IMG/VR virus record: IMGVR_UViG_3300039367_000062
Coordinates: 1-5,437 of that record
Source: a virus
Taxonomy: Duplodnaviria > Heunggongvirae > Uroviricota > Caudoviricetes
Strand: one strand, 5' to 3'
DNA length: 5,437 nt
Shown: in pieces, positions 1 to 5,361 of the stretch
How positions within the stretch are numbered: the stretch's first letter is position 1
Layout of the letters: each line of letters starts with the position of its first letter
Notes under the pieces: generated by a model
What the model was told of the DNA's origin: nothing
The model's database searches: none
What the model saw: only the letters and a program-made list of their open reading frames with translations
Translations under genes and position numbers: made by a program

Positions 1-314
1 TATTTCTCACGGATTACGGCGTCTATTTTTTCTTCCATCCGTTTATAGTCAGGAAGAAGGCGTTTCAGTGGAGCGGGAATATCCTGGCAATACGCTTCTG
101 TTGCATCATGCATTAACGCTTCAAAAGCAAATTCCTGCGGCACCAGCTGGCTGCAAAGCACCGCATGCTGGGCGACACTGTAGAAGTGTGAAAGATGTCC
201 TGCAAAGCGACAGATATTTGAAAGGGAAACCGCGATATCGTTAATCACGATGTCGTCTTTATTTATCTTGTCATAATAAAAATGCTTCCCGGAAAAAGTT
301 TTAATAAATGACAT
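1..314 (-). CDS. yfdR: HD-domain phosphohydrolase (YfdR-like), 5' part only; gene continues beyond window start
   Basis: Manual minus-strand translation from ATG at 314..312: MSFIKTFSGKHFYYDKINKDDIVINDIAVSLSNICRFAGHLSHFYSVAQHAVLCSQLVPQEFAFEALMHDATEAYCQDIPAPLKRLLPDYKRMEEKIDAVIREK, open to the window edge. It shows the H...HD metal-binding signature (GHLSH, LMHDATE). A GGAGA Shine-Dalgarno lies 5 nt upstream of the ATG. Not in the supplied ORF track because it is truncated. The symbol is from memory of the CPS-53 prophage HD protein and is less certain than the family call. Confidence 0.75.
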   Translation of the reverse strand, partial: MSFIKTFSGKHFYYDKINKDDIVINDIAVSLSNICRFAGHLSHFYSVAQHAVLCSQLVPQEFAFEALMHDATEAYCQDIPAPLKRLLPDYKRMEEKIDAVIREK

Positions 315-404: not shown

Positions 405-1322
405 TTAAGTTGTTGGATTTTGGCTTTTATCTTCTTTGTAAGAAAGAAGGTCACACATCAAATTAACTACCTTGCTGAATTGGAAAAGGTCAGCGCCAGT
501 CTGATGACGCCACTGGAATGCTTTATCATCTTCATCATTAAATGTCTGAGATTGAGTATTGATGCGCGAAAAATGGAAATTTTCGGTAAGAATGAAGGTC
601 ACACCGCAACCGGATAACTCCATTTTATCAGCAGTGAAACTACTACTAAGGCTATCGGCCAGTTCGCTTTGAATTGACTCATGCTCAGCTGAGTAGCGAA
701 TAATTTCCTTTTGATCTGCGTAGCGCGATAGCTGAATATAATTTCCGACAGTGAATCCTTCAAATGCATTGGCTGCACCATTGATGTAGTTATTCAGGCG
801 TGTAGTCAGTCCATTCTTGATATCACTGATGTTGATTGTTTCTGTTTTCACTGAACCGACAACCTTAATCAGCATTGCGCATACCATACCGGCTATTATT
901 TTATTGGTTGTGTTGATTACCAATAATTTCTCATCAGTGCTGTACAATGCAAGAATCAGAGTAGACTTAACAAATGCCTGTTTGCATAGATCTACTCGTA
1001 CGTTATCAATAATGGCCAGTCGTTCGGCACGCTTTAATTTATTCCCGGACATATTTTCGGTTGTTTGGATTCGAGAATTAGCTTCTTTCATGACGACATG
1101 TCGGGGAATTATTTTCTGATCATGACGGATTACCATTGCGTACCCACCAGATATCGGAGTTACCAGTTCACCAGTGACAGGATTCTCTACAAAAGAGGAC
1201 CGTGAAAATTCTGTTTCCCCGATTTCAGAATAAGGGAGTTCGAGAAGATGACCTTCAATAGCCTGTATACTAGGTAATGTTGCTCGGTACACAATTGCGT
1301 TACGAAATTTTGGTAATTTCAT
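405..1322 (-). CDS. RdgC-family recombination-associated protein (phage type), about 305 aa
   Basis: Internal ATG at 1322..1320 of the 405..1694 ORF, preceded by GAGGA with 8-nt spacing. N-terminus MKLPKFRNAIVYRA matches the RdgC N-terminal pattern (F-x-N-x-x-VYR), and overall length is RdgC-like. The 124-codon in-frame extension upstream is the translation of the GC-rich noncoding island, not protein. Confidence 0.8.
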   Translation of the reverse strand: MKLPKFRNAIVYRATLPSIQAIEGHLLELPYSEIGETEFSRSSFVENPVTGELVTPISGGYAMVIRHDQKIIPRHVVMKEANSRIQTTENMSGNKLKRAERLAIIDNVRVDLCKQAFVKSTLILALYSTDEKLLVINTTNKIIAGMVCAMLIKVVGSVKTETINISDIKNGLTTRLNNYINGAANAFEGFTVGNYIQLSRYADQKEIIRYSAEHESIQSELADSLSSSFTADKMELSGCGVTFILTENFHFSRINTQSQTFNDEDDKAFQWRHQTGADLFQFSKVVNLMCDLLSYKEDKSQNPTT

Positions 1323-1357
1323 TCTATTTTCCTCTGCACAATGTATTAGTTTCTCCA

Positions 1358-1700
1358 CAAAACAGAGAAGAACACCTGCGGTGGCAGCCGCCCGGATGGA
1401 TTGGGTTATGAGCCCGTCGTCCGGTGATGCTCTTCTCTGTTTTGCAAAAAAGGACGGTACCAGCCGGAAGCAAGGGTACAAACTGGTACCGCCAGGACTA
1501 CACACAGCATAAAGTTGTGGTGCCGGGTGCCTCCCGGTGCCTGGCGAAGGTTGCACACCAGGCGGGTGGGTATCCACAGAAGGTCGACTGTCAGCCTCAA
1601 CCTTAACCCGCGTGCGCTGAGCCGCATTCACCACAACGCTAAGGATTCTCTCTGGTTGAAAATACTTAGCTGTTATGTGCCTGCTTTTAGCCACATCAGG
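1358..1700. other. GC-rich, ORF-poor structured island (candidate ncRNA or cis-acting RNA element)
   Basis: About 62% GC in sampled 60-nt blocks, visibly higher than the flanking genes. All six frames are open but give non-protein-like, P/G/R-rich translations. Perfect 13-bp inverted repeat CAAAACAGAGAAG (1358..1370) / CTTCTCTGTTTTG (1432..1444); 9-bp inverted repeat CGGTACCAG (1455..1463) / CTGGTACCG (1483..1491); GGTGCC three times in 1519..1541 with a CCGGG/CCCGG hairpin. Confidence 0.3.
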
Positions 1701-1739
1701 CGAGGTGGACCTGGTTATTCCCCAACAACAAGGATTCGG

Positions 1740-1762
1740 TTAATCTGGATATCCCCAACAAC
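1740..1762. repeat. Left arm of an imperfect inverted repeat flanking the 1779..2294 gene; also overlaps a 13-bp direct repeat
   Basis: TTAATCTGGATATCCCCAACAAC is the reverse complement, with a 2-bp indel, of the 2303..2326 arm; core ATCTGGATATCC is identical. TCCCCAACAACAA occurs twice in direct orientation (1719..1731 and 1752..1764). Confidence 0.5.
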
Positions 1763-1778
1763 AATAAGAGTATTCAAT

Positions 1779-2294
1779 GTGATCGCTGAATTAACGGCAG
1801 CAATGACGGCTATTCGTGAAACAGCCCAGATTGCAAAACTAATGAACGAGGCAAAAACTCAAGCTGAAGTAAATGCGGCTATTGGTGAGCTGAACTCAAA
1901 GCTTGCGTCTATTCAGCGCGAATGCGTGTCTCTCGTTGAACTGGTGGGCTCTTATCAAGAAATAAATGCTTCTCTCAAAGCTAAAATTGCAGAATTCGAA
2001 AACTTTGAGGCTCAGACGGAAGGCTATATCCTTAACCAACTTGAGTCGGGTACTTTTGTATACTCGAAGGAGGTAATCGTGAACGGTGGCAGCATAACCA
2101 TGCATCTTTGCCCAAAATGTTTTGGACAAAAGATAGTATCGATACTTCAACCATTCCCGGTTAGCAAAGATGAGCTTTTTCATAAAAGCAGGTGCCTCCA
2201 CTGTGAAAATAAGTTTCTGATGAATAAAAATCCGGATTACGTATCGCCTCCATCCATTGAGGAGTTGTCCAGAAAACTTAACGGCAATCTGTAG
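1779..2294 (+). CDS. Hypothetical coiled-coil plus C-terminal zinc-ribbon protein (about 171 aa); moron-like gene antisense to the early-left operon
   Basis: ORF 1515..2294; the upstream 88 codons are GC-rich and non-protein-like. Likely start is GTG 1779 (AAGAG 8 nt upstream) or ATG 1803 (no Shine-Dalgarno). N-terminal half is heptad-like (AKLMNEAKTQAEVNAAIGELNSKLASIQ...); C-terminal half has CPKC...(about 29 aa)...CLHC, a CxxC...CxxC ribbon. Codon usage is coding-like and AT-rich. Own terminator immediately downstream. Confidence 0.6.
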   Translation: MIAELTAAMTAIRETAQIAKLMNEAKTQAEVNAAIGELNSKLASIQRECVSLVELVGSYQEINASLKAKIAEFENFEAQTEGYILNQLESGTFVYSKEVIVNGGSITMHLCPKCFGQKIVSILQPFPVSKDELFHKSRCLHCENKFLMNKNPDYVSPPSIEELSRKLNGNL

Positions 2295-2302
2295 ATTGCT
2301 AC

Positions 2303-2326
2303 TGTTGTGGATATCCAGATTGTTAA
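2303..2326. repeat. Right arm of the imperfect inverted repeat flanking the 1779..2294 gene
   Basis: TGTTGTGGATATCCAGATTGTTAA; its reverse complement TTAACAATCTGGATATCCACAACA matches the left arm at 1740..1762. The GGATATCC core is itself palindromic. Confidence 0.5.
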
Positions 2327-2331
2327 AGAGC
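2319..2331 (-). promoter_or_regulatory. boxA-like antitermination motif on the leftward transcript (nutL-like)
   Basis: The minus strand reads GCTCTTTAACAAT, matching the rrn-type boxA consensus TGCTCTTTAACAA. It lies about 100 nt downstream of the pL-like promoter and directly after the 2333..2356 hairpin as read on the minus strand. Confidence 0.35.
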
Positions 2332-2332
2332 T

Positions 2333-2356
2333 AAGCGTCCTGTAGGGCGCTTTTTT
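2333..2356 (+). terminator. Rho-independent terminator for the 1779..2294 gene
   Basis: AAGCGTCC (2333..2340), loop TGTA, GGGCGCTT (2345..2352) gives an 8-bp stem with one G-U pair, followed by a T6 run at 2351..2356, 39 nt after the stop codon. Confidence 0.6.
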
Positions 2357-2436
2357 GTTGCTAATGAATCATCCTAGACTTCATATGCTCCAGGCGGCTA
2401 CTTCGTGGGCGTCCTGCCTGTTTGTTGTTTCTCTTG

Positions 2437-2450
2437 GGTACATTATGTAT
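2437..2450. promoter_or_regulatory. Operator-like site (OL candidate) overlapping the pL -10
   Basis: GGTACATTATGTAT matches 12 of 14 positions with GGTACATATTGTAT at 3262..3275 on the other side of the repressor gene, and contains the TACA/TGTA dyad. Confidence 0.35.
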
Positions 2451-2469
2451 CCCAAAGGCACATTGTCAA
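2442..2469 (-). promoter_or_regulatory. pL-like sigma-70 promoter driving leftward early transcription
   Basis: On the minus strand: -35 TTGACA (plus 2464..2469), 16-bp spacer, -10 CATAAT (plus 2442..2447). It sits immediately beyond the repressor-gene terminator and is overlapped by the operator-like site. Confidence 0.45.
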
Positions 2470-2508: not shown

Positions 2509-3183
2509 TTAGGCTTTGATTTTGTATCTTCTTGGTTTTCCTGAGAAAATCACAGTTCCAATTATAGAGCAATTACCGTTGATCTTAATGTAAGGCTCAG
2601 GCCAGTTTGGGTTTAACGCTTTGAGATAACGCTGTGTCCCATCTTCTATCAACCTTTTGAAGGTGGTTTCACCTGTATCGTGCATCAATGCAATAACGTC
2701 GTCACCGTGGCAGGCAGGTACTTCAGGATCGACAAAAATCATGTCTCCCGGGCGGTACTCATCAATCATTGAATCACCTATCACCCGCAAGATATAAGTC
2801 ATTTCCCCACAGGGTACAGGGCAGGGATACGTTTCTGCTGTGCTCAAATCAACCTCAGAATATCCAACTTCTTTCCATGCTCCGGCCTGTACCCATGATA
2901 TGACAGGGACTAATGTGATTTGTTTATTAGTGATTGAAACATCAGGTTTTTTTGTGATGTTCGTTGTCTGGTGTTCTTGATCGAGCCATCCGACAGGCAG
3001 GTCGAAACATTTTTCGATGTGTCGTGCCATGCTGTCACCGATATTTTTAGTAGCACCATCTCCCATAAACCTGCTGGTCTGGGTTGGCTCGCGATCAATC
3101 ATAGTGGCAAAGGAAGAATTCCCGCCAACACCATCTCTCAGTTTTCTGGCGTTAGACCGCCGGATGTCATGGATTGTTTTCAT
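2509..3183 (-). CDS. CI-type prophage repressor: N-terminal HTH, C-terminal S24 (LexA-like) autopeptidase domain
   Basis: 224-aa ORF. C-terminal domain carries the Ser/Lys dyad signature (VIGDSM ... TTFKRL) typical of LexA, lambda CI and UmuD. N-terminal region is HTH-like (QTSRFMG...ARHIEKCFDLPVGWLD). It is divergent from the Cro-like gene, with operators between. Confidence 0.9.
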   Translation of the reverse strand: MKTIHDIRRSNARKLRDGVGGNSSFATMIDREPTQTSRFMGDGATKNIGDSMARHIEKCFDLPVGWLDQEHQTTNITKKPDVSITNKQITLVPVISWVQAGAWKEVGYSEVDLSTAETYPCPVPCGEMTYILRVIGDSMIDEYRPGDMIFVDPEVPACHGDDVIALMHDTGETTFKRLIEDGTQRYLKALNPNWPEPYIKINGNCSIIGTVIFSGKPRRYKIKA

Positions 3184-3189
3184 AACGAA

Positions 3190-3218
3190 ATTAAAACCCT
3201 TGTACCGTTAAGGTACAA
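3190..3218 (-). promoter_or_regulatory. pRM-like promoter for the repressor gene (possibly leaderless mRNA)
   Basis: On the minus strand: -35 TTGTAC (plus 3213..3218, inside the palindromic operator), 17-bp spacer, -10 TTTAAT (plus 3190..3195) ending 6 nt before the repressor ATG. No Shine-Dalgarno precedes the ATG. Confidence 0.3.
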
Positions 3219-3219
3219 G
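3199..3219. promoter_or_regulatory. Perfect palindromic operator (OR candidate)
   Basis: CTTGTACC-GTTAA-GGTACAAG: 8-bp perfect arms around a 5-bp centre, in the repressor/cro intergenic region, just upstream of the pR-like -35 and overlapping the pRM-like -35. Confidence 0.5.
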
Positions 3220-3261: not shown

Positions 3262-3275
3262 GGTACATATTGTAT
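3262..3275. promoter_or_regulatory. Operator-like site overlapping the cro-like ribosome-binding site and start codon
   Basis: GGTACATATTGTAT, a near-duplicate of 2437..2450; it contains the cro-like ATG. Confidence 0.35.
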
Positions 3276-3474
3276 GAAAGCGTATTGGGACTCTTTAACC
3301 AAAGAACAGCAGGGCGAGTTGGCCGGAAAAGTTGGCTCAACACCTGGCTACTTACGGCTGGTTTTCAATGGCTATAAAAAAGCCAGTTTTGTGCTGGCTA
3401 AAAAACTTGAGCAATGCACGTCAGGTGCAATTACGAAATCTGACTTAAGACCGGATATCTATCCGAAAGATTAG
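3274..3474 (+). CDS. Cro-like small HTH regulator (66 aa)
   Basis: Internal ATG of the 2971..3474 ORF, whose upstream part is antisense to the repressor gene. GGAGG at 3259..3263, 10 nt upstream. Protein MKAYWDSLTKEQQGELAGKVGSTPGYLRLVFNGYKKASFVLAKKLEQCTSGAITKSDLRPDIYPKD has a small HTH-like pattern, and the position is the first rightward gene divergent from the repressor. Confidence 0.75.
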   Translation: MKAYWDSLTKEQQGELAGKVGSTPGYLRLVFNGYKKASFVLAKKLEQCTSGAITKSDLRPDIYPKD

Positions 3475-4430: not shown

Positions 4431-5361
4431 ATTAACCGGCTATGTATGGGATGGTTGCGCAGCGTCAGGCATGAAATTATCCAGCGTGGCAATTATGGCC
4501 CGCCTGGCTGATTTCAGTAATGACGAAGGTGTGTGCTGGCCATCGATTGAAACCATTGCCCGCCAGATTGGCGCGGGGATGAGTACAGTCAGAACGGCTA
4601 TCGCACGGCTGGAAGCAGAAGGCTGGTTAACGCGTAAGGCGCGTCGCCAGGGTAACCGCAATGCGTCGAATGTTTATCAGCTTAACGTTGCGAAGCTTCA
4701 GGCTGCGGCATTTTCTCAACTGTCAGATTCTGACCCGTCAAAATCTGACGCATCAAAATCTGACCCGTCAAAATTTGATGCGTCGAAATCTGGCAAAAAA
4801 GCGGGTTTTCACCCGTCAGAATCTGGCGGGGATCCGTCAGTAAAATCAAAACATGATCCGTCAGATAAAAAACCTTCTCGTCCGGACGCTTCGCAACCGG
4901 ACACGCAGACGGCTGAACAGGATTTTTTAACTCGCCATCCTGATGCGGTTGTATTCAGCCCTAAAAAGCGCCAGTGGGGGACGCAGGATGATTTGACCTG
5001 CGCACAGTGGCTCTGGAAAAAAATCATCGCCCTGTACGAGCAGGCTGCCGAATGTGACGGCGAGGTGGTTCGTCCCAAAGAACCGAACTGGACAGCCTGG
5101 GCAAACGAAATTCGCCTGATGTGTGTGCAGGATGGTCGTACTCACAAACAAATCTGCGAGATGTACAGCCGCGTCAGCCGCGATCCGTTCTGGTGCCGTA
5201 ACGTGCTCAGCCCGTCGAAGCTGCGGGAAAAATGGGATGAGCTTTCCCTGCGCTTATCGCCGTCCGTAAGCACGTACACCGAAAAACGCGAAGACCCGTA
5301 CTTCAAAGCCAGTTACGACAACGTGGACTACAGCCAGATCCCGGCAGGATTCAGGGGGTAA
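4420..5361 (+). CDS. Replication initiator (lambda O-like): N-terminal HTH DNA-binding domain, repeat linker containing the origin iterons, C-terminal domain
   Basis: 313-aa ORF with GAGG 6 nt upstream. The N-terminal [13 protein letters not shown]...MSTVRTAIARLEAEGWLTRKARRQGNRNASNVYQLNV is an HTH of the type found in phage replication initiators. An internal 15-bp tandem repeat array encodes SK[SF]D[PA] repeats. It sits in the O position after the cro/cII-like genes. Confidence 0.85.
   Translation: MSTKLTGYVWDGCAASGMKLSSVAIMARLADFSNDEGVCWPSIETIARQIGAGMSTVRTAIARLEAEGWLTRKARRQGNRNASNVYQLNVAKLQAAAFSQLSDSDPSKSDASKSDPSKFDASKSGKKAGFHPSESGGDPSVKSKHDPSDKKPSRPDASQPDTQTAEQDFLTRHPDAVVFSPKKRQWGTQDDLTCAQWLWKKIIALYEQAAECDGEVVRPKEPNWTAWANEIRLMCVQDGRTHKQICEMYSRVSRDPFWCRNVLSPSKLREKWDELSLRLSPSVSTYTEKREDPYFKASYDNVDYSQIPAGFRG
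4722..4796. repeat. Iteron array (candidate phage replication origin) inside the initiator gene
   Basis: Five tandem 15-bp units: GTCAGATTCTGACCC, GTCAAAATCTGACGC, ATCAAAATCTGACCC, GTCAAAATTTGATGC, GTCGAAATCTGGCAA. Each has a GTCA...TGAC internal dyad. Degenerate copies (CCGTCAGAATCTGG, CCGTCAGTAAAATC, CCGTCAGATAAAAAA) continue to about 4875, followed by A/T-rich stretches. Confidence 0.7.

What the first reader, a model, noticed from the sequence alone, without database searches (positions are those of the whole stretch)
1358..2360. Candidate lysogen-expressed accessory cassette in the immunity-adjacent hotspot: structured GC-rich island plus coiled-coil/zinc-ribbon protein
The rightward 1779..2294 gene is embedded antisense in the leftward early operon, between the pL-like promoter and the rdgC-like and HD-hydrolase genes. 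It has its own terminator, is AT-rich with rare codons in its 3' half, and is bracketed by roughly 24-bp inverted repeats. In lambdoid phages this interval next to the repressor is where lysogen-expressed superinfection-exclusion or abortive-infection genes (rexAB, sieB and similar) are found. The protein (N-terminal coiled coil, C-terminal CxxC...CxxC ribbon, not hydrophobic) does not resemble rexA/B or sieB that I can recognise. Directly upstream is a roughly 350-bp GC-rich noncoding structured island. Together they could be a two-part RNA plus protein system, or a moron with a long structured leader.
Basis: partly seen in the sequence, partly recalled or inferred. Interest (0 to 1): 0.75.

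Follow-up and report, generated by a model that had tools for sequence, protein, structure and literature searches.

The report
Rip1-like defence gene beside phage RNAs
A prophage gene lying backwards next to the repressor is a relative of Rip1, a recently described pore-forming anti-phage protein, while the GC-rich "island" beside it is a separate structured RNA read from the opposite strand, so the two are neighbours and not a two-part system.

Summary
The window is the immunity region of an SfV/e14-like lambdoid prophage that has no N gene. It is 99.7% identical to Escherichia phage PhiR49_1.

The 171-aa rightward ORF (1779-2294) is real. It is a full-length homologue of Rip1, "ring interacting pore 1". 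A profile of its family matches PDB 9oox at E 5e-20, Foldseek gives probability 1.0, and all four zinc-ribbon cysteines align. Rip1 is a prophage-encoded abortive-infection pore triggered by ring-shaped small terminase or portal proteins (Patel et al., Nature 2026). The gene sits antisense in the pL operon, in the same kind of slot as the homologue hkaP in HK620 and HK630.

The slot is a variable hotspot. I found at least nine different contents between the same conserved flanks.

The GC-rich island (1345-1708) is also real, but it belongs to the minus strand and to the phage backbone. It holds a pseudoknotted STnc100-like RNA (40 bits, below Rfam's cut-off of 47), an intrinsic terminator and a long hairpin. 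The island occurs without the gene, and the gene occurs without the island.

So the defence-moron reading is supported and the RNA-plus-protein reading is not.

In passing I found an undescribed, covarying RNA in the pL leader (2434-2354) and an rrn-type boxA (2331-2320).

The parts
1779..2294 (+). Rip1-family gene (171 aa): long N-terminal amphipathic helices plus a C-terminal four-cysteine zinc-ribbon beta domain
   Evidence: ORF. PHROG 1244 at 9.6e-60. PDB 9oox Rip1: single sequence 2.6e-7, family profile 5.4e-20. Foldseek probability 1.0. AF2 mean pLDDT 90.6.
2333..2358 (+). Intrinsic terminator of the Rip1-like gene (8-bp stem plus T6). Read leftward it is a weak hairpin with no U tract.
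1671..2331 (+). The mobile cassette as a unit: 108 nt of upstream sequence, the ORF, both inverted-repeat arms, and the boxA complement
   Evidence: 93.5% identical block in a different, Rac-like prophage of E. coli O157, again next to the repressor
1742..1760 (.). Left arm of the 19-nt inverted repeat that brackets the ORF
   Evidence: The arm is kept, with indels, around a different cassette in SfIV and Kati.
2303..2321 (.). Right arm of the 19-nt inverted repeat
1709..2362 (.). Variable slot (moron hotspot) between conserved backbone elements
   Evidence: Homology to SfV, SfII, mEp460_4F5 and ST64B stops at 1708 and resumes at 2363. At least 9 different contents in 25 distinct slots, 275-963 nt long.
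1511..1641 (-). Core of the STnc100-like pseudoknotted RNA (island module A). P1 1637-1629/1522-1514; P2 1626-1623/1616-1613; P3 1611-1607/1566-1562; P4 1561-1556/1546-1541; P5 1537-1533/1527-1523; pseudoknot 1603-1597 with 1553-1547.
   Evidence: Rfam RF02076, 40.3 bits, E 2.3e-6, whole hit 1667..1444. Family of 91 unique sequences with covarying P4 and pseudoknot. Fold.
1446..1493 (-). Leftward intrinsic terminator that ends the STnc100-like RNA (13-bp stem, -20.5 kcal/mol, U6)
   Evidence: Conserved in SfV, SfII, mEp460_4F5 and e14.
1351..1451 (-). Long hairpin (24-nt arms 1358-1381/1421-1444; -51 kcal/mol, z -8.0) directly upstream of the rdgC-like start. Together with the terminator this is island module B.
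   Evidence: Module B alone is about 95% identical in mEp460, cdtI and Stx2a/Stx2c phages.
2320..2331 (-). rrn-type boxA, GCUCUUUAACAA, on the leftward transcript, three bases 3' of a hairpin
   Evidence: Exact 12-mer; 0.04 expected by chance at up to one mismatch. rrn boxA sequence from PMC2724277. Travels with three cassette types.
2354..2434 (-). Conserved pL-leader RNA (P1 closing helix plus two hairpins). It lies just outside the finding's coordinates but is part of the leftward transcript.
   Evidence: 13-phage alignment: 95.6% of cells paired, 10 of 14 pairs changed on both sides, slid controls at most 44.5%. Model R1 scores 86 bits here.
2442..2469 (-). pL-like promoter, TTGACA-16-CATAAT

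Best explanation
The interval holds two independent things.

(1) The cassette. The rightward 171-aa gene is a Rip1-family anti-phage gene carried as a moron in the variable slot between the repressor/pL and the first leftward early genes. By analogy with Rip1 (inferred, not shown here), the protein is harmless on its own. When an infecting phage makes ring-shaped small terminase or portal oligomers, the C-terminal zinc-ribbon domain docks around the ring. The N-terminal amphipathic helices then assemble into a membrane pore, and the cell dies before progeny are completed (abortive infection). Because the gene lies antisense to pL, strong leftward transcription after induction should silence it by transcriptional interference and antisense RNA. 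That would spare the prophage's own packaging proteins. This step is also inferred.

(2) The island. The GC-rich island is not part of the cassette. It is backbone sequence of the leftward early transcript. It consists of a pseudoknotted RNA of the STnc100/PasD superfamily ended by a strong intrinsic terminator, then a 24-bp-arm hairpin in the 5' UTR of the rdgC-like gene. I think it most likely yields a stable structured RNA and at the same time forms the tL-type barrier that gates the rdgC-to-int operon. The phage has no N gene. Its pL transcript starts with a conserved structured leader RNA and, in this cassette type, carries an rrn-type boxA just before the roughly 550 nt of untranslated antisense RNA. 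These are candidate anti-termination and anti-Rho devices that would let pL transcription cross the cassette and the terminator.
For: Rip1 homology:
- phmmer against the PDB finds 9oox_L, 'ring interacting pore 1', at E 2.6e-7 over residues 14-150.
- A profile of 32 family members gives E 5.4e-20 over 5-152 of the profile against 15-160 of 164 in the chain, with the four cysteines aligned.
- The AF2 model (pLDDT 90.6) has 9oox_L and 9oox_M as its only significant Foldseek matches in the PDB (E 6e-7, probability 1.0, TM-score 0.53-0.71 normalised to the chain).
- Rip1 biology is taken from PMC13434031 and PMC12908700.
- Relatives are found in the Pseudomonas DMS3/JBD30/MP38 group and as HkaP in HK620, HK629 and HK630.
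- hkaP also lies rightward inside the pL operon and was annotated 'putative superinfection exclusion protein'.

Variable slot: breakpoints at 1708/2363 and at 1762/2315; contents differ. About 372 of 5426 complete E. coli genomes cover at least 80% of the 1300-2520 query, which spans the cassette, while 3047 match some part of it.

Independence of the two parts: the cassette occurs without any STnc100-like RNA in O157 and in HK620 and HK630. The island occurs without the gene in SfV, SfII, SfIV, mEp460_4F5, ST64B and e14.

Island RNA:
- Minus-strand Rfam hit and strand asymmetry in folding.
- 90 of 91 unique family members have the P4 hairpin, with many different stem sequences.
- The P4 loop is complementary to an upstream segment over 5.9 nt on average, against 2.5 nt for shuffled loops.
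- Terminator and long hairpin energies.
- Every copy examined lies between the repressor and the first leftward gene, in leftward orientation.

Leader and boxA.
Against: - No experiment here shows defence, expression in the lysogen, or a trigger.
- Identity to the solved HK446 Rip1 is only about 28%, so trigger specificity may differ.
- No sigma-70-type promoter was found on the + strand upstream of the ORF.
- PADLOC (2023) does not list the family.
- The island RNA scores below Rfam's gathering threshold (40.3 against 47 bits). Canonical STnc100/PasD genes lie in the late region near Q and the lysis genes, not here.
- What any member of that RNA family does is unknown.
- A minus-strand reading frame stays open through the island in the window and in ST64B.
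- The window's copy of the leader RNA has two mismatches in P1.
- boxA is absent from two other cassette types that also carry long antisense ORFs.
Confidence: 0.75

Rival explanations
1. The island and the ORF form one two-part RNA-plus-protein system, or the island is the long structured 5' leader of the ORF.
For: They are adjacent. In several phages a + strand ORF starts 40-70 nt to the right of the island border, and a 38-nt stretch (1671-1708) is shared upstream of unrelated + ORFs. No other promoter for the ORF was found.
Against: The RNA fold, the covariation and the Rfam hit are all on the minus strand. The island is found with at least 9 different slot contents, including an empty slot. 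The cassette is found without the island in O157, HK620 and HK630.
Confidence: 0.05
2. The protein is a Rip1 homologue by descent but does something else here, such as a zinc-ribbon regulator of prophage genes or a packaging accessory factor that binds the phage's own terminase or portal ring.
For: Only about 28% identity to the solved Rip1. All 123 database relatives are annotated 'hypothetical'. PADLOC has no entry. In Pseudomonas the gene lies between the terminase genes, which could suggest a packaging role.
Against: Homology is full length and all four zinc ligands are conserved. The gene is in a variable accessory slot, antisense to the early operon and next to the repressor, with its own terminator. 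That is typical of lysogen-expressed exclusion genes and not of morphogenesis genes. The gene is absent from close relatives of this phage, so it is dispensable for phage growth.
Confidence: 0.15
3. The island is protein-coding: an N-terminal extension of the rdgC-like gene, or a YmfH-like small protein.
For: One minus-strand frame has no stop across the island in the window (the 429-aa ORF 405..1694) and in ST64B. Public records annotate ymfH in K-12 e14 and an extended SfIVp34 over the homologous DNA.
Against: The homologous RNA in phiES15 and AH07 has stops in all six frames. Substitutions preserve base pairs, not codons. The same island precedes unrelated genes, rdgC-like here and yfdP-like in SfV. 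The RdgC domain starts at residue 6 of the ATG-1322 product, and a GAGG Shine-Dalgarno sequence lies upstream of that ATG.
Confidence: 0.05
4. The island RNA, together with the pL-leader RNA, is a cis-acting device that controls elongation of the leftward operon by RNA-based antitermination or gating, and is not a trans-acting Hfq sRNA.
For: No N homologue is present. A -20.5 kcal/mol terminator lies between pL and all the early-left genes. The leader RNA sits at the 5' end of the pL transcript in 13 phages of eight host genera. The leader and the island-type RNA co-occur on the same strand in the same order in 26 loci. Terminator-like sites follow the leader in 11 of 13 phages.
Against: The leader model does not match HK022 or HK639 put RNAs. 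Canonical STnc100 and PasD were recovered as abundant Hfq-associated sRNAs with many mRNA partners. phiES15 has the island-type RNA without the leader. None of this was tested functionally.
Confidence: 0.25

Closest known systems
Rip1 (ring interacting pore 1) of Escherichia phage HK446 and P. aeruginosa prophages (Patel et al., Nature 2026; PDB 9oox), and the orthologous HkaP of HK620, HK629 and HK630
   Same: Full-length sequence homology (profile E 5.4e-20). Same predicted fold: long N-terminal helices plus a four-cysteine zinc-ribbon beta domain. Similar size, 171 against 164 aa. Prophage-encoded. hkaP, like this gene, is a rightward gene embedded antisense in the pL operon near the repressor.
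   Different: Only about 28-30% identity, so this is a distinct enterobacterial subfamily (PHROG 1244; 123 relatives, all annotated 'hypothetical'). The original Pseudomonas gene lies between the terminase genes. Here the cassette is flanked by a 19-nt inverted repeat and carries an rrn-type boxA on its antisense strand. Trigger and phenotype were not tested.
sieB and rexAB of lambda and P22 (lysogen-expressed exclusion genes beside the repressor)
   Same: Genomic position and logic: an accessory gene in the immunity-adjacent part of the pL operon. Like sieB, it is transcribed against pL.
   Different: No sequence or profile similarity. The protein is soluble and amphipathic, not an integral membrane protein.
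STnc100 (Rfam RF02076) and PasD prophage sRNAs
   Same: The invariant CACCGGGAGGCACCCGGCACC hairpin and the UGGUGAAU junction. The same P1, P4, P5 and pseudoknot architecture. Its own intrinsic terminator. Confined to temperate enterobacterial phages.
   Different: Scores 40.3 bits, below the gathering score of 47. P2 and P3 differ (GCGGCUCAGCGCACGCGGG in place of CCCCCUGUGCGGAGGGG). It lies in the early-left operon beside the repressor, not in the late region between Q and the lysis genes. No own promoter is recognisable.
HK022 and HK639 put RNAs (cis-acting antiterminator RNAs)
   Same: The pL-leader RNA at 2434-2354 has the same position (5' end of the pL transcript), a similar size (about 65-80 nt with two hairpins) and the same genomic setting (lambdoid phage without N, terminators downstream).
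   Different: A covariance model of the leader does not detect putL or putR of HK022, or the annotated putL-like RNA of HK639. The conserved loop sequences are unrelated. No putR-like second copy follows cro.
rrn and lambda-nut boxA (NusB/NusE loading site)
   Same: Exact match to the rrn boxA core GCUCUUUAACAA. It is on the transcribed strand downstream of a promoter and is preceded by a hairpin, as in rrn leaders where boxB comes before boxA.
   Different: There is no N and no recognisable boxC. It sits at the edge of a mobile cassette and not in a fixed leader. Binding by Nus factors was not tested.

Membership tests
Rip1 family | Significant full-length sequence similarity to an experimentally characterised Rip1 | tested here: met
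   phmmer E 2.6e-7. Family profile E 5.4e-20, covering 15-160 of 164 residues of 9oox_L.
Rip1 family | Same fold as the solved Rip1 chain | tested here: met
   AF2 model, pLDDT 90.6. Foldseek against the PDB finds only 9oox_L and 9oox_M as significant: probability 1.0, TM-score 0.53-0.71 normalised to the chain.
Rip1 family | C-terminal CxxC...CxxC zinc ribbon in the ring-contacting half | tested here: met
   C111, C114, C139 and C142 are invariant in 32 homologues and align with the four cysteines of 9oox_L.
Rip1 family | N-terminal amphipathic helices that form the pore | tested here: inconclusive
   Predicted helices at residues 3-24 and 28-79. Hydrophobic moment is moderate (0.9-1.4 on the Kyte-Doolittle scale) and no transmembrane-like segment is present. 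Pore formation itself cannot be tested here.
Rip1 family | Encoded by a prophage as a dispensable accessory gene | tested here: met
   The gene lies in a variable slot of an inducible phage, PhiR49_1.
Rip1 family | Protects against phage; activated by oligomeric small terminase or portal rings; permeabilises the membrane | not testable with these tools
   Needs plaque assays, escape mutants, and pull-down, cryo-EM or liposome assays.
SieB / RexAB | Sequence or profile similarity to SieB, RexA or RexB | tested here: not met
   Pfam, PHROG and NCBIfam scans give no such hit. Only the genomic position is shared.
STnc100 (RF02076) | Covariance-model score at or above Rfam's gathering threshold | tested here: not met
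   40.3 bits against 47. Homologues in related phages score 29-43 bits.
STnc100 (RF02076) | Conserved core hairpin, closing helix and 3' terminator | tested here: met
   The core CACCGGGAGGCACCCGGCACC is identical. P1, P4, P5 and the pseudoknot are shared with 91 unique family members. Terminator.
STnc100 (RF02076) | Location in the late region near Q and the lysis genes; Hfq-associated sRNA | tested here: not met
   Here it lies in the early-left operon next to the repressor. The canonical location is seen in HK639 and reported in the literature. Hfq binding cannot be tested here.
HK022-type put RNA | Sequence and structure similarity to putL or putR | tested here: not met
   Model R1 of the pL-leader RNA gives no hit at putL or putR of HK022, or at the annotated putL-like RNA of HK639.
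HK022-type put RNA | Promotes terminator read-through in cis, dependent on the RNA polymerase beta' zinc-binding domain | not testable with these tools
   Needs reporter fusions and rpoC mutants.
boxA (Nus-factor site) | Match to the boxA consensus on the transcribed strand downstream of a promoter | tested here: met
   12 of 12 match to rrn boxA at 2331..2320 (-), about 110 nt downstream of pL.
boxA (Nus-factor site) | Binds NusB/NusE and suppresses Rho-dependent termination | not testable with these tools
   Needs nusB or nusE mutants, bicyclomycin, and reporter assays.

The most novel reading that the evidence does not exclude
Two conserved RNAs frame the slot: the undescribed pL-leader RNA at 2434-2354, and the island-type STnc100-like pseudoknot RNA with its terminator at 1641-1446. 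In this reading they form a protein-independent antitermination or gating device for the leftward early operon of N-less lambdoid phages. That would be a second family after HK022 put, and it would give the widespread STnc100/PasD RNA fold a cis-acting transcriptional role. The slot between the two RNAs would then be a protected landing pad where defence morons such as rip1 can insert without polar effects, helped by a cassette-borne boxA.
Probability: 0.2. Interest if true: 0.8.

Novelty: new member of a known kind. Interest (0 to 1): 0.5.

Why it matters
The gene adds a well-populated enterobacterial subfamily to the Rip1 pore-forming defence family. It has 123 database relatives, and roughly 7% of complete E. 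coli genomes carry this cassette. It also shows that in coliphages these genes live in the classical sieB-type slot beside the repressor. That gives a concrete candidate for exclusion phenotypes of SfV/e14-like prophages.

The comparative work also defines this slot precisely. It is framed by two conserved structured RNAs whose functions are unknown. One of them, the pL-leader RNA, is not in Rfam. How lambdoid phages without N get their early-left transcripts past terminators is an open question outside HK022 and HK639. These elements make that question directly testable with simple reporter fusions.

Tried and rejected
- Pfam, NCBIfam and PADLOC scans of the ORF gave only sub-threshold coiled-coil noise (TMF_TATA_bd, REase_I).
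- I tested whether the conserved pL-leader RNA belongs to the put family. The covariance model R1 gave no hit on HK022 or HK639 put sites, so membership is rejected.
- I looked for a sigma-70 promoter for the ORF. None was found on the + strand. Hand inspection suggests only a weak extended -10-like motif, present in e14, SfV and SfII but disrupted in the window.
- The Rfam mir-5880 hit at 4721-4795 is an artefact of 15-nt iterons inside the O-like gene.
- An 11-nt complementarity between the leader (2399-2389) and the island hairpin loop (1396-1386) (I12) is not kept in e14 or ST64B. I treat it as chance.
- Alignment A3 used wrong window coordinates and MAFFT misaligned one subgroup. It was not used. 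Helices were evaluated with an anchored script instead.
- The primary papers on Rip1 (Patel 2026) and on put-like RNAs (King 2011) are not in the library. Rip1 biology is cited from a review and a meeting report.
- A literature search for the conserved RNA core sequences found nothing.
Full report
**Setting**

The window is the immunity region of a lambdoid prophage of the SfV / e14 / CPS-53 type. Reading left to right it contains:
- an HD-domain hydrolase gene (3..314, -);
- an RdgC-like gene (405..1322, -; Pfam RdgC 2.6e-30);
- the finding itself;
- a leftward promoter, TTGACA-16-CATAAT (2469..2442, -);
- a LexA-like cI repressor (2509..3183, -);
- cro (3274..3474), a CII-like gene, a ymfM-like gene and an O-like replication gene.

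The stretch 1300-2520 is 99.7% identical to Escherichia phage PhiR49_1 from ECOR13. None of the eight proteins scanned matches an N-type antiterminator.

**The ORF**

The ORF 1779..2294 (+) encodes 171 aa from a GTG start. Its 123 database relatives, all in Enterobacterales and all annotated 'hypothetical', begin at the same MIAEL. It belongs to PHROG 1244, function unknown (9.6e-60).

A sequence search of the PDB finds a single significant chain, 9oox_L, 'ring interacting pore 1 (Rip1)', at E 2.6e-7. A profile built from 32 family members raises this to E 5.4e-20. It covers profile positions 5-152 against residues 15-160 of the 164-residue chain, and the two CxxC pairs align.

The AlphaFold model has mean pLDDT 90.6. 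It shows helices at 3-24 and 28-79 followed by a beta domain that holds the zinc ribbon. Its only significant Foldseek matches in the PDB are 9oox_L and 9oox_M, 'Escherichia phage HK446 Rip1 in complex with phage T6 small terminase' (E 6e-7, probability 1.0, TM-score up to 0.71 normalised to the chain, 28% identity).

According to a 2026 review and a meeting report, Rip1 is a prophage-encoded anti-phage protein. It is not toxic alone. Twelve copies assemble around the 11-mer small terminase ring (or the portal) of an infecting phage, and the resulting pore kills the cell prematurely. Relatives are reported to be widespread in proteobacterial prophages (PMC13434031 and PMC12908700; primary paper Patel et al., Nature 651:1060, not held). 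PADLOC-DB (2023) predates this work and has no model for the family.

**Position of the gene**

tblastn finds relatives in two groups. One is the Pseudomonas DMS3/JBD30/MP38 group. The other is HkaP of HK620, HK629 and HK630, at 29% identity.

In HK620 and HK630, hkaP is also a rightward gene inside the leftward pL operon. It lies between N/hkaQ and cIII, and was annotated in 2001 as a 'putative superinfection exclusion protein'.

**The slot is variable**

BLAST against related phages gives two nested sets of breakpoints.
- SfV, SfII, mEp460_4F5 and ST64B share 1345-1708 and 2363 onward.
- SfIV and Kati share 1345-1762 and 2315 onward. Their similarity therefore reaches into the two arms of the 19-nt inverted repeat (1742-1760 / 2303-2321).

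Between these points each phage carries something different:
- SfIV and Kati: a 144-aa rightward ORF plus a 73-aa leftward ORF;
- SfV: 81-aa and 98-aa ORFs;
- SfII: small ORFs on both strands;
- mEp460_4F5: a 124-aa leftward HTH protein;
- e14 of K-12: ymfI and ymfJ;
- ST64B: nothing.

Across the fetched loci and IMG/VR contigs, 25 distinct slots of 275-963 nt hold at least nine different contents. Three of the 25 hold the Rip1-like gene. In complete E. coli genomes, 3047 of 5426 match some part of the 1300-2520 query, but only 372 cover at least 80% of it and so carry this cassette.

The cassette itself (1671-2331) recurs at 93.5% identity in a Rac-like prophage of E. coli O157. There it again lies next to the repressor and against the leftward operon, but with unrelated flanks.

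**The island**

The interval 1345-1708 is GC-rich (0.55) and strongly structured, but on the minus strand. The fold z-score is -5.7 on the minus strand and -2.4 on the plus strand. The only meaningful Rfam match is STnc100 (RF02076) on the minus strand, 1667..1444, at 40.3 bits and E 2.3e-6. That is below the gathering score of 47. The same sub-threshold hit recurs in every related phage.

BLAST splits the island into two modules.
- Module A (about 1496-1708) is the STnc100-like core.
- Module B (1346-1494) is a leftward intrinsic terminator (13-bp stem, -20.5 kcal/mol, U6) plus a long hairpin (-51.1 kcal/mol, z -8.0) that ends about 25 nt before the rdgC-like start codon.
- Module B alone is about 95% identical in mEp460, cdtI and Stx2a/Stx2c phages.
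- Every copy looked at lies between the repressor and the first leftward gene, in leftward orientation.

A pattern scan of IMG/VR for the two invariant motifs (TGGTGAAT ... CCGGGAGGCACCCGGCACC) returned at least 120 loci. These gave 91 unique elements in 37 clusters at 90% identity. They fall into the canonical STnc100 type and an 'island type' with 14 unique sequences.

The common fold has:
- a closing helix P1 (GUUGUGGUG / CACCACAAC in the window);
- P2 and P3;
- a P4 hairpin;
- the invariant P5 hairpin;
- a pseudoknot between the P4 loop and an upstream segment (AAGGUUG / CAACCUU in the window).

P4 was found in 90 of 91 elements, with many unrelated stem sequences. The perfect complement between the P4 loop and the upstream segment averages 5.9 nt, against 2.5 nt for shuffled loops. 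The strands covary: CCAGUC/GACUGG, AUCAGCA/UGCUGAU, AAGGCUG/CAGCCUU and AGACUGACAAA/UUUGUCAGUCU. P3 also covaries within the island type: GCGGG/CCCGC, GCGGGG/CCCCGU and GCGGAA/UUCCGC.

So the island is a genuine structured RNA. It is a divergent branch of a known but functionally uncharacterised family. Canonical members lie in the late region: between Q and holin in HK639, 75 nt downstream of stx2B in Stx2 phages (PMC12370729), and PasD near Q (bioRxiv 10.64898/2026.05.13.724894). Both STnc100 and PasD are treated in that preprint as prophage-encoded sRNAs, and PasD was found by Hfq RIL-seq.

**Is the island coding?**

One minus-strand frame stays open through the island in the window and in ST64B, and some public records annotate it (K-12 ymfH, SfIVp34). 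However, the phiES15 and AH07 homologues have stops in all frames. The same island also precedes unrelated genes in different phages. I regard it as non-coding.

**Are the island and the gene one system?**

No.
- The RNA is on the other strand.
- It is present with every kind of slot content.
- The Rip1-like cassette is found with no STnc100-like RNA within 3 kb in O157 and in HK620 and HK630.

One loose end remains. A 38-nt stretch at the island's right edge (1671-1708) is shared upstream of unrelated rightward ORFs and travels with the cassette in O157. It may hold the rightward promoter, but the consensus scan finds none.

**The leftward transcript as a whole (partly outside the given coordinates)**

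Immediately after pL lies a block of about 65-80 nt (2434-2354, -). It is conserved even where promoters, operators and repressors differ. I found it in SfV, SfII, SfIV, Kati, mEp460_4F5, e14, ST64B, SPN3UB, mEp237, Yersinia YeP1, Pantoea AH07, Pectobacterium ZF40, Klebsiella phages and Aeromonas pAEv1818. In the six more distant phages whose surroundings I read (YeP1, SPN3UB, pAEv1818, ZF40, mEp237, AH07) it follows a TTGACA-type promoter, and in all but mEp237 it lies about 110-170 nt after the repressor stop codon.

A three-helix structure fits it well. 95.6% of cells are paired, and 10 of 14 pairs have changes on both sides. No shuffle out of 500 reaches the observed covariation score, and slid controls reach at most 44.5% paired.

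The element has no Rfam match. Its covariance model does not detect HK022 putL or putR, or the annotated putL-like RNA of HK639. It resembles put in place and size but is not a member of that family.

In 26 loci the leader and the island-type RNA lie on the same strand, leader first, with slots of 275-963 nt between them. Terminator-like sites follow the leader in 11 of 13 phages.

In the window's cassette type, the leftward strand also carries GCUCUUUAACAA (2331-2320), three bases 3' of a hairpin. This is an exact match to the rrn boxA core. The motif travels with three cassette types that have long antisense ORFs, and it is present in the O157 copy.

My inference is that boxA recruits Nus factors, so that pL transcription is not stopped by Rho while it crosses about 550 nt of untranslated antisense RNA. 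I also infer that the leader and/or the island RNA help RNA polymerase pass the -20 kcal/mol terminator. Neither point was tested.

**Verdict**

The inverted repeat is 19 nt, not 24. The codon-usage argument is weak. The island is on the opposite strand.

The defence-moron interpretation is supported by homology to a family published in 2026, so the gene is a new member of a known kind. The RNA-plus-protein interpretation is not supported.

The most interesting residue is RNA biology. A divergent STnc100-type pseudoknot RNA and an undescribed pL-leader RNA frame a moron hotspot in phages that lack N.

Noticed in passing
window 2354-2434 (-): A conserved, covarying three-helix RNA at the 5' end of the pL transcript. 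It is found in N-less temperate phages of Escherichia, Shigella, Salmonella, Yersinia, Pantoea, Pectobacterium, Klebsiella and Aeromonas. It has no Rfam match and is not detectably related to HK022 or HK639 put RNAs. The window's copy has two mismatches in P1.
   Followed up: yes
window 2320-2331 (-): An exact rrn-type boxA (GCUCUUUAACAA) on the leftward transcript, three bases after a hairpin. It travels with the Rip1-like cassette, the SfIV-type cassette and one other type, including the O157 copy in a different prophage.
   Followed up: partly
window 1671-1708 (+): A 38-nt stretch (TGTTATGTGCCTGCTTTTAGCCACATCAGGCGAGGTGG) shared upstream of unrelated rightward ORFs in the window, the O157 cassette, e14 ymfI, SfV and SfII. 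It is a possible rightward promoter or regulatory element. In e14, SfV and SfII it is followed by an extended -10-like TGgTATGCT or TATCCT.
   Followed up: partly
window 4729-4792: Four and a third copies of a 15-nt iteron (TCTGACCCGTCAAAA) inside the O-like replication gene, probably the replication origin. They cause a spurious Rfam mir-5880 hit.
   Followed up: partly
L142 1475-1786 (E. coli K-12 e14) and L005 1102-1782 (SfIV): The annotated CDS ymfH, and the N-terminal extension of SfIVp34, overlap the homologue of the island RNA and are probably not protein-coding. The e14 copy of the RNA core is degenerate (29 bits).
   Followed up: partly
window 1597-1603, 1580-1585 and 1547-1553 (-): The 5' strand of the pseudoknot (AAGGUUG) can pair either with the P4 loop (CAACCUU) or locally with GACCUU. 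A comparable alternative pairing is visible in the phiES15 and AH07-type sequences, so a conformational switch is possible.
   Followed up: no
L021 about 44800-45000 (HK639); L029 2318-3359: HK639, which has an annotated putL-like RNA in its left operon, also carries a canonical STnc100 between Q and holin. Some viral contigs carry two or three STnc100-like copies within about 1 kb.
   Followed up: no
L002 5951-6139 (SfV); L010 and L011 (mEp460, Stx2a_1447): isrK and C4 antisense-RNA modules (P1/P7-type immunity) lie beyond the cII-like gene, on the side away from the repressor, in relatives of this phage. The window has ymfL/ymfM-type genes there instead.
   Followed up: no
window 3199-3219 and 2436-2453: Likely operator palindromes: CTTGTACC-N5-GGTACAAG between cI and cro, and a related GGGTACATTATGTATCCC overlapping pL.
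   Followed up: no
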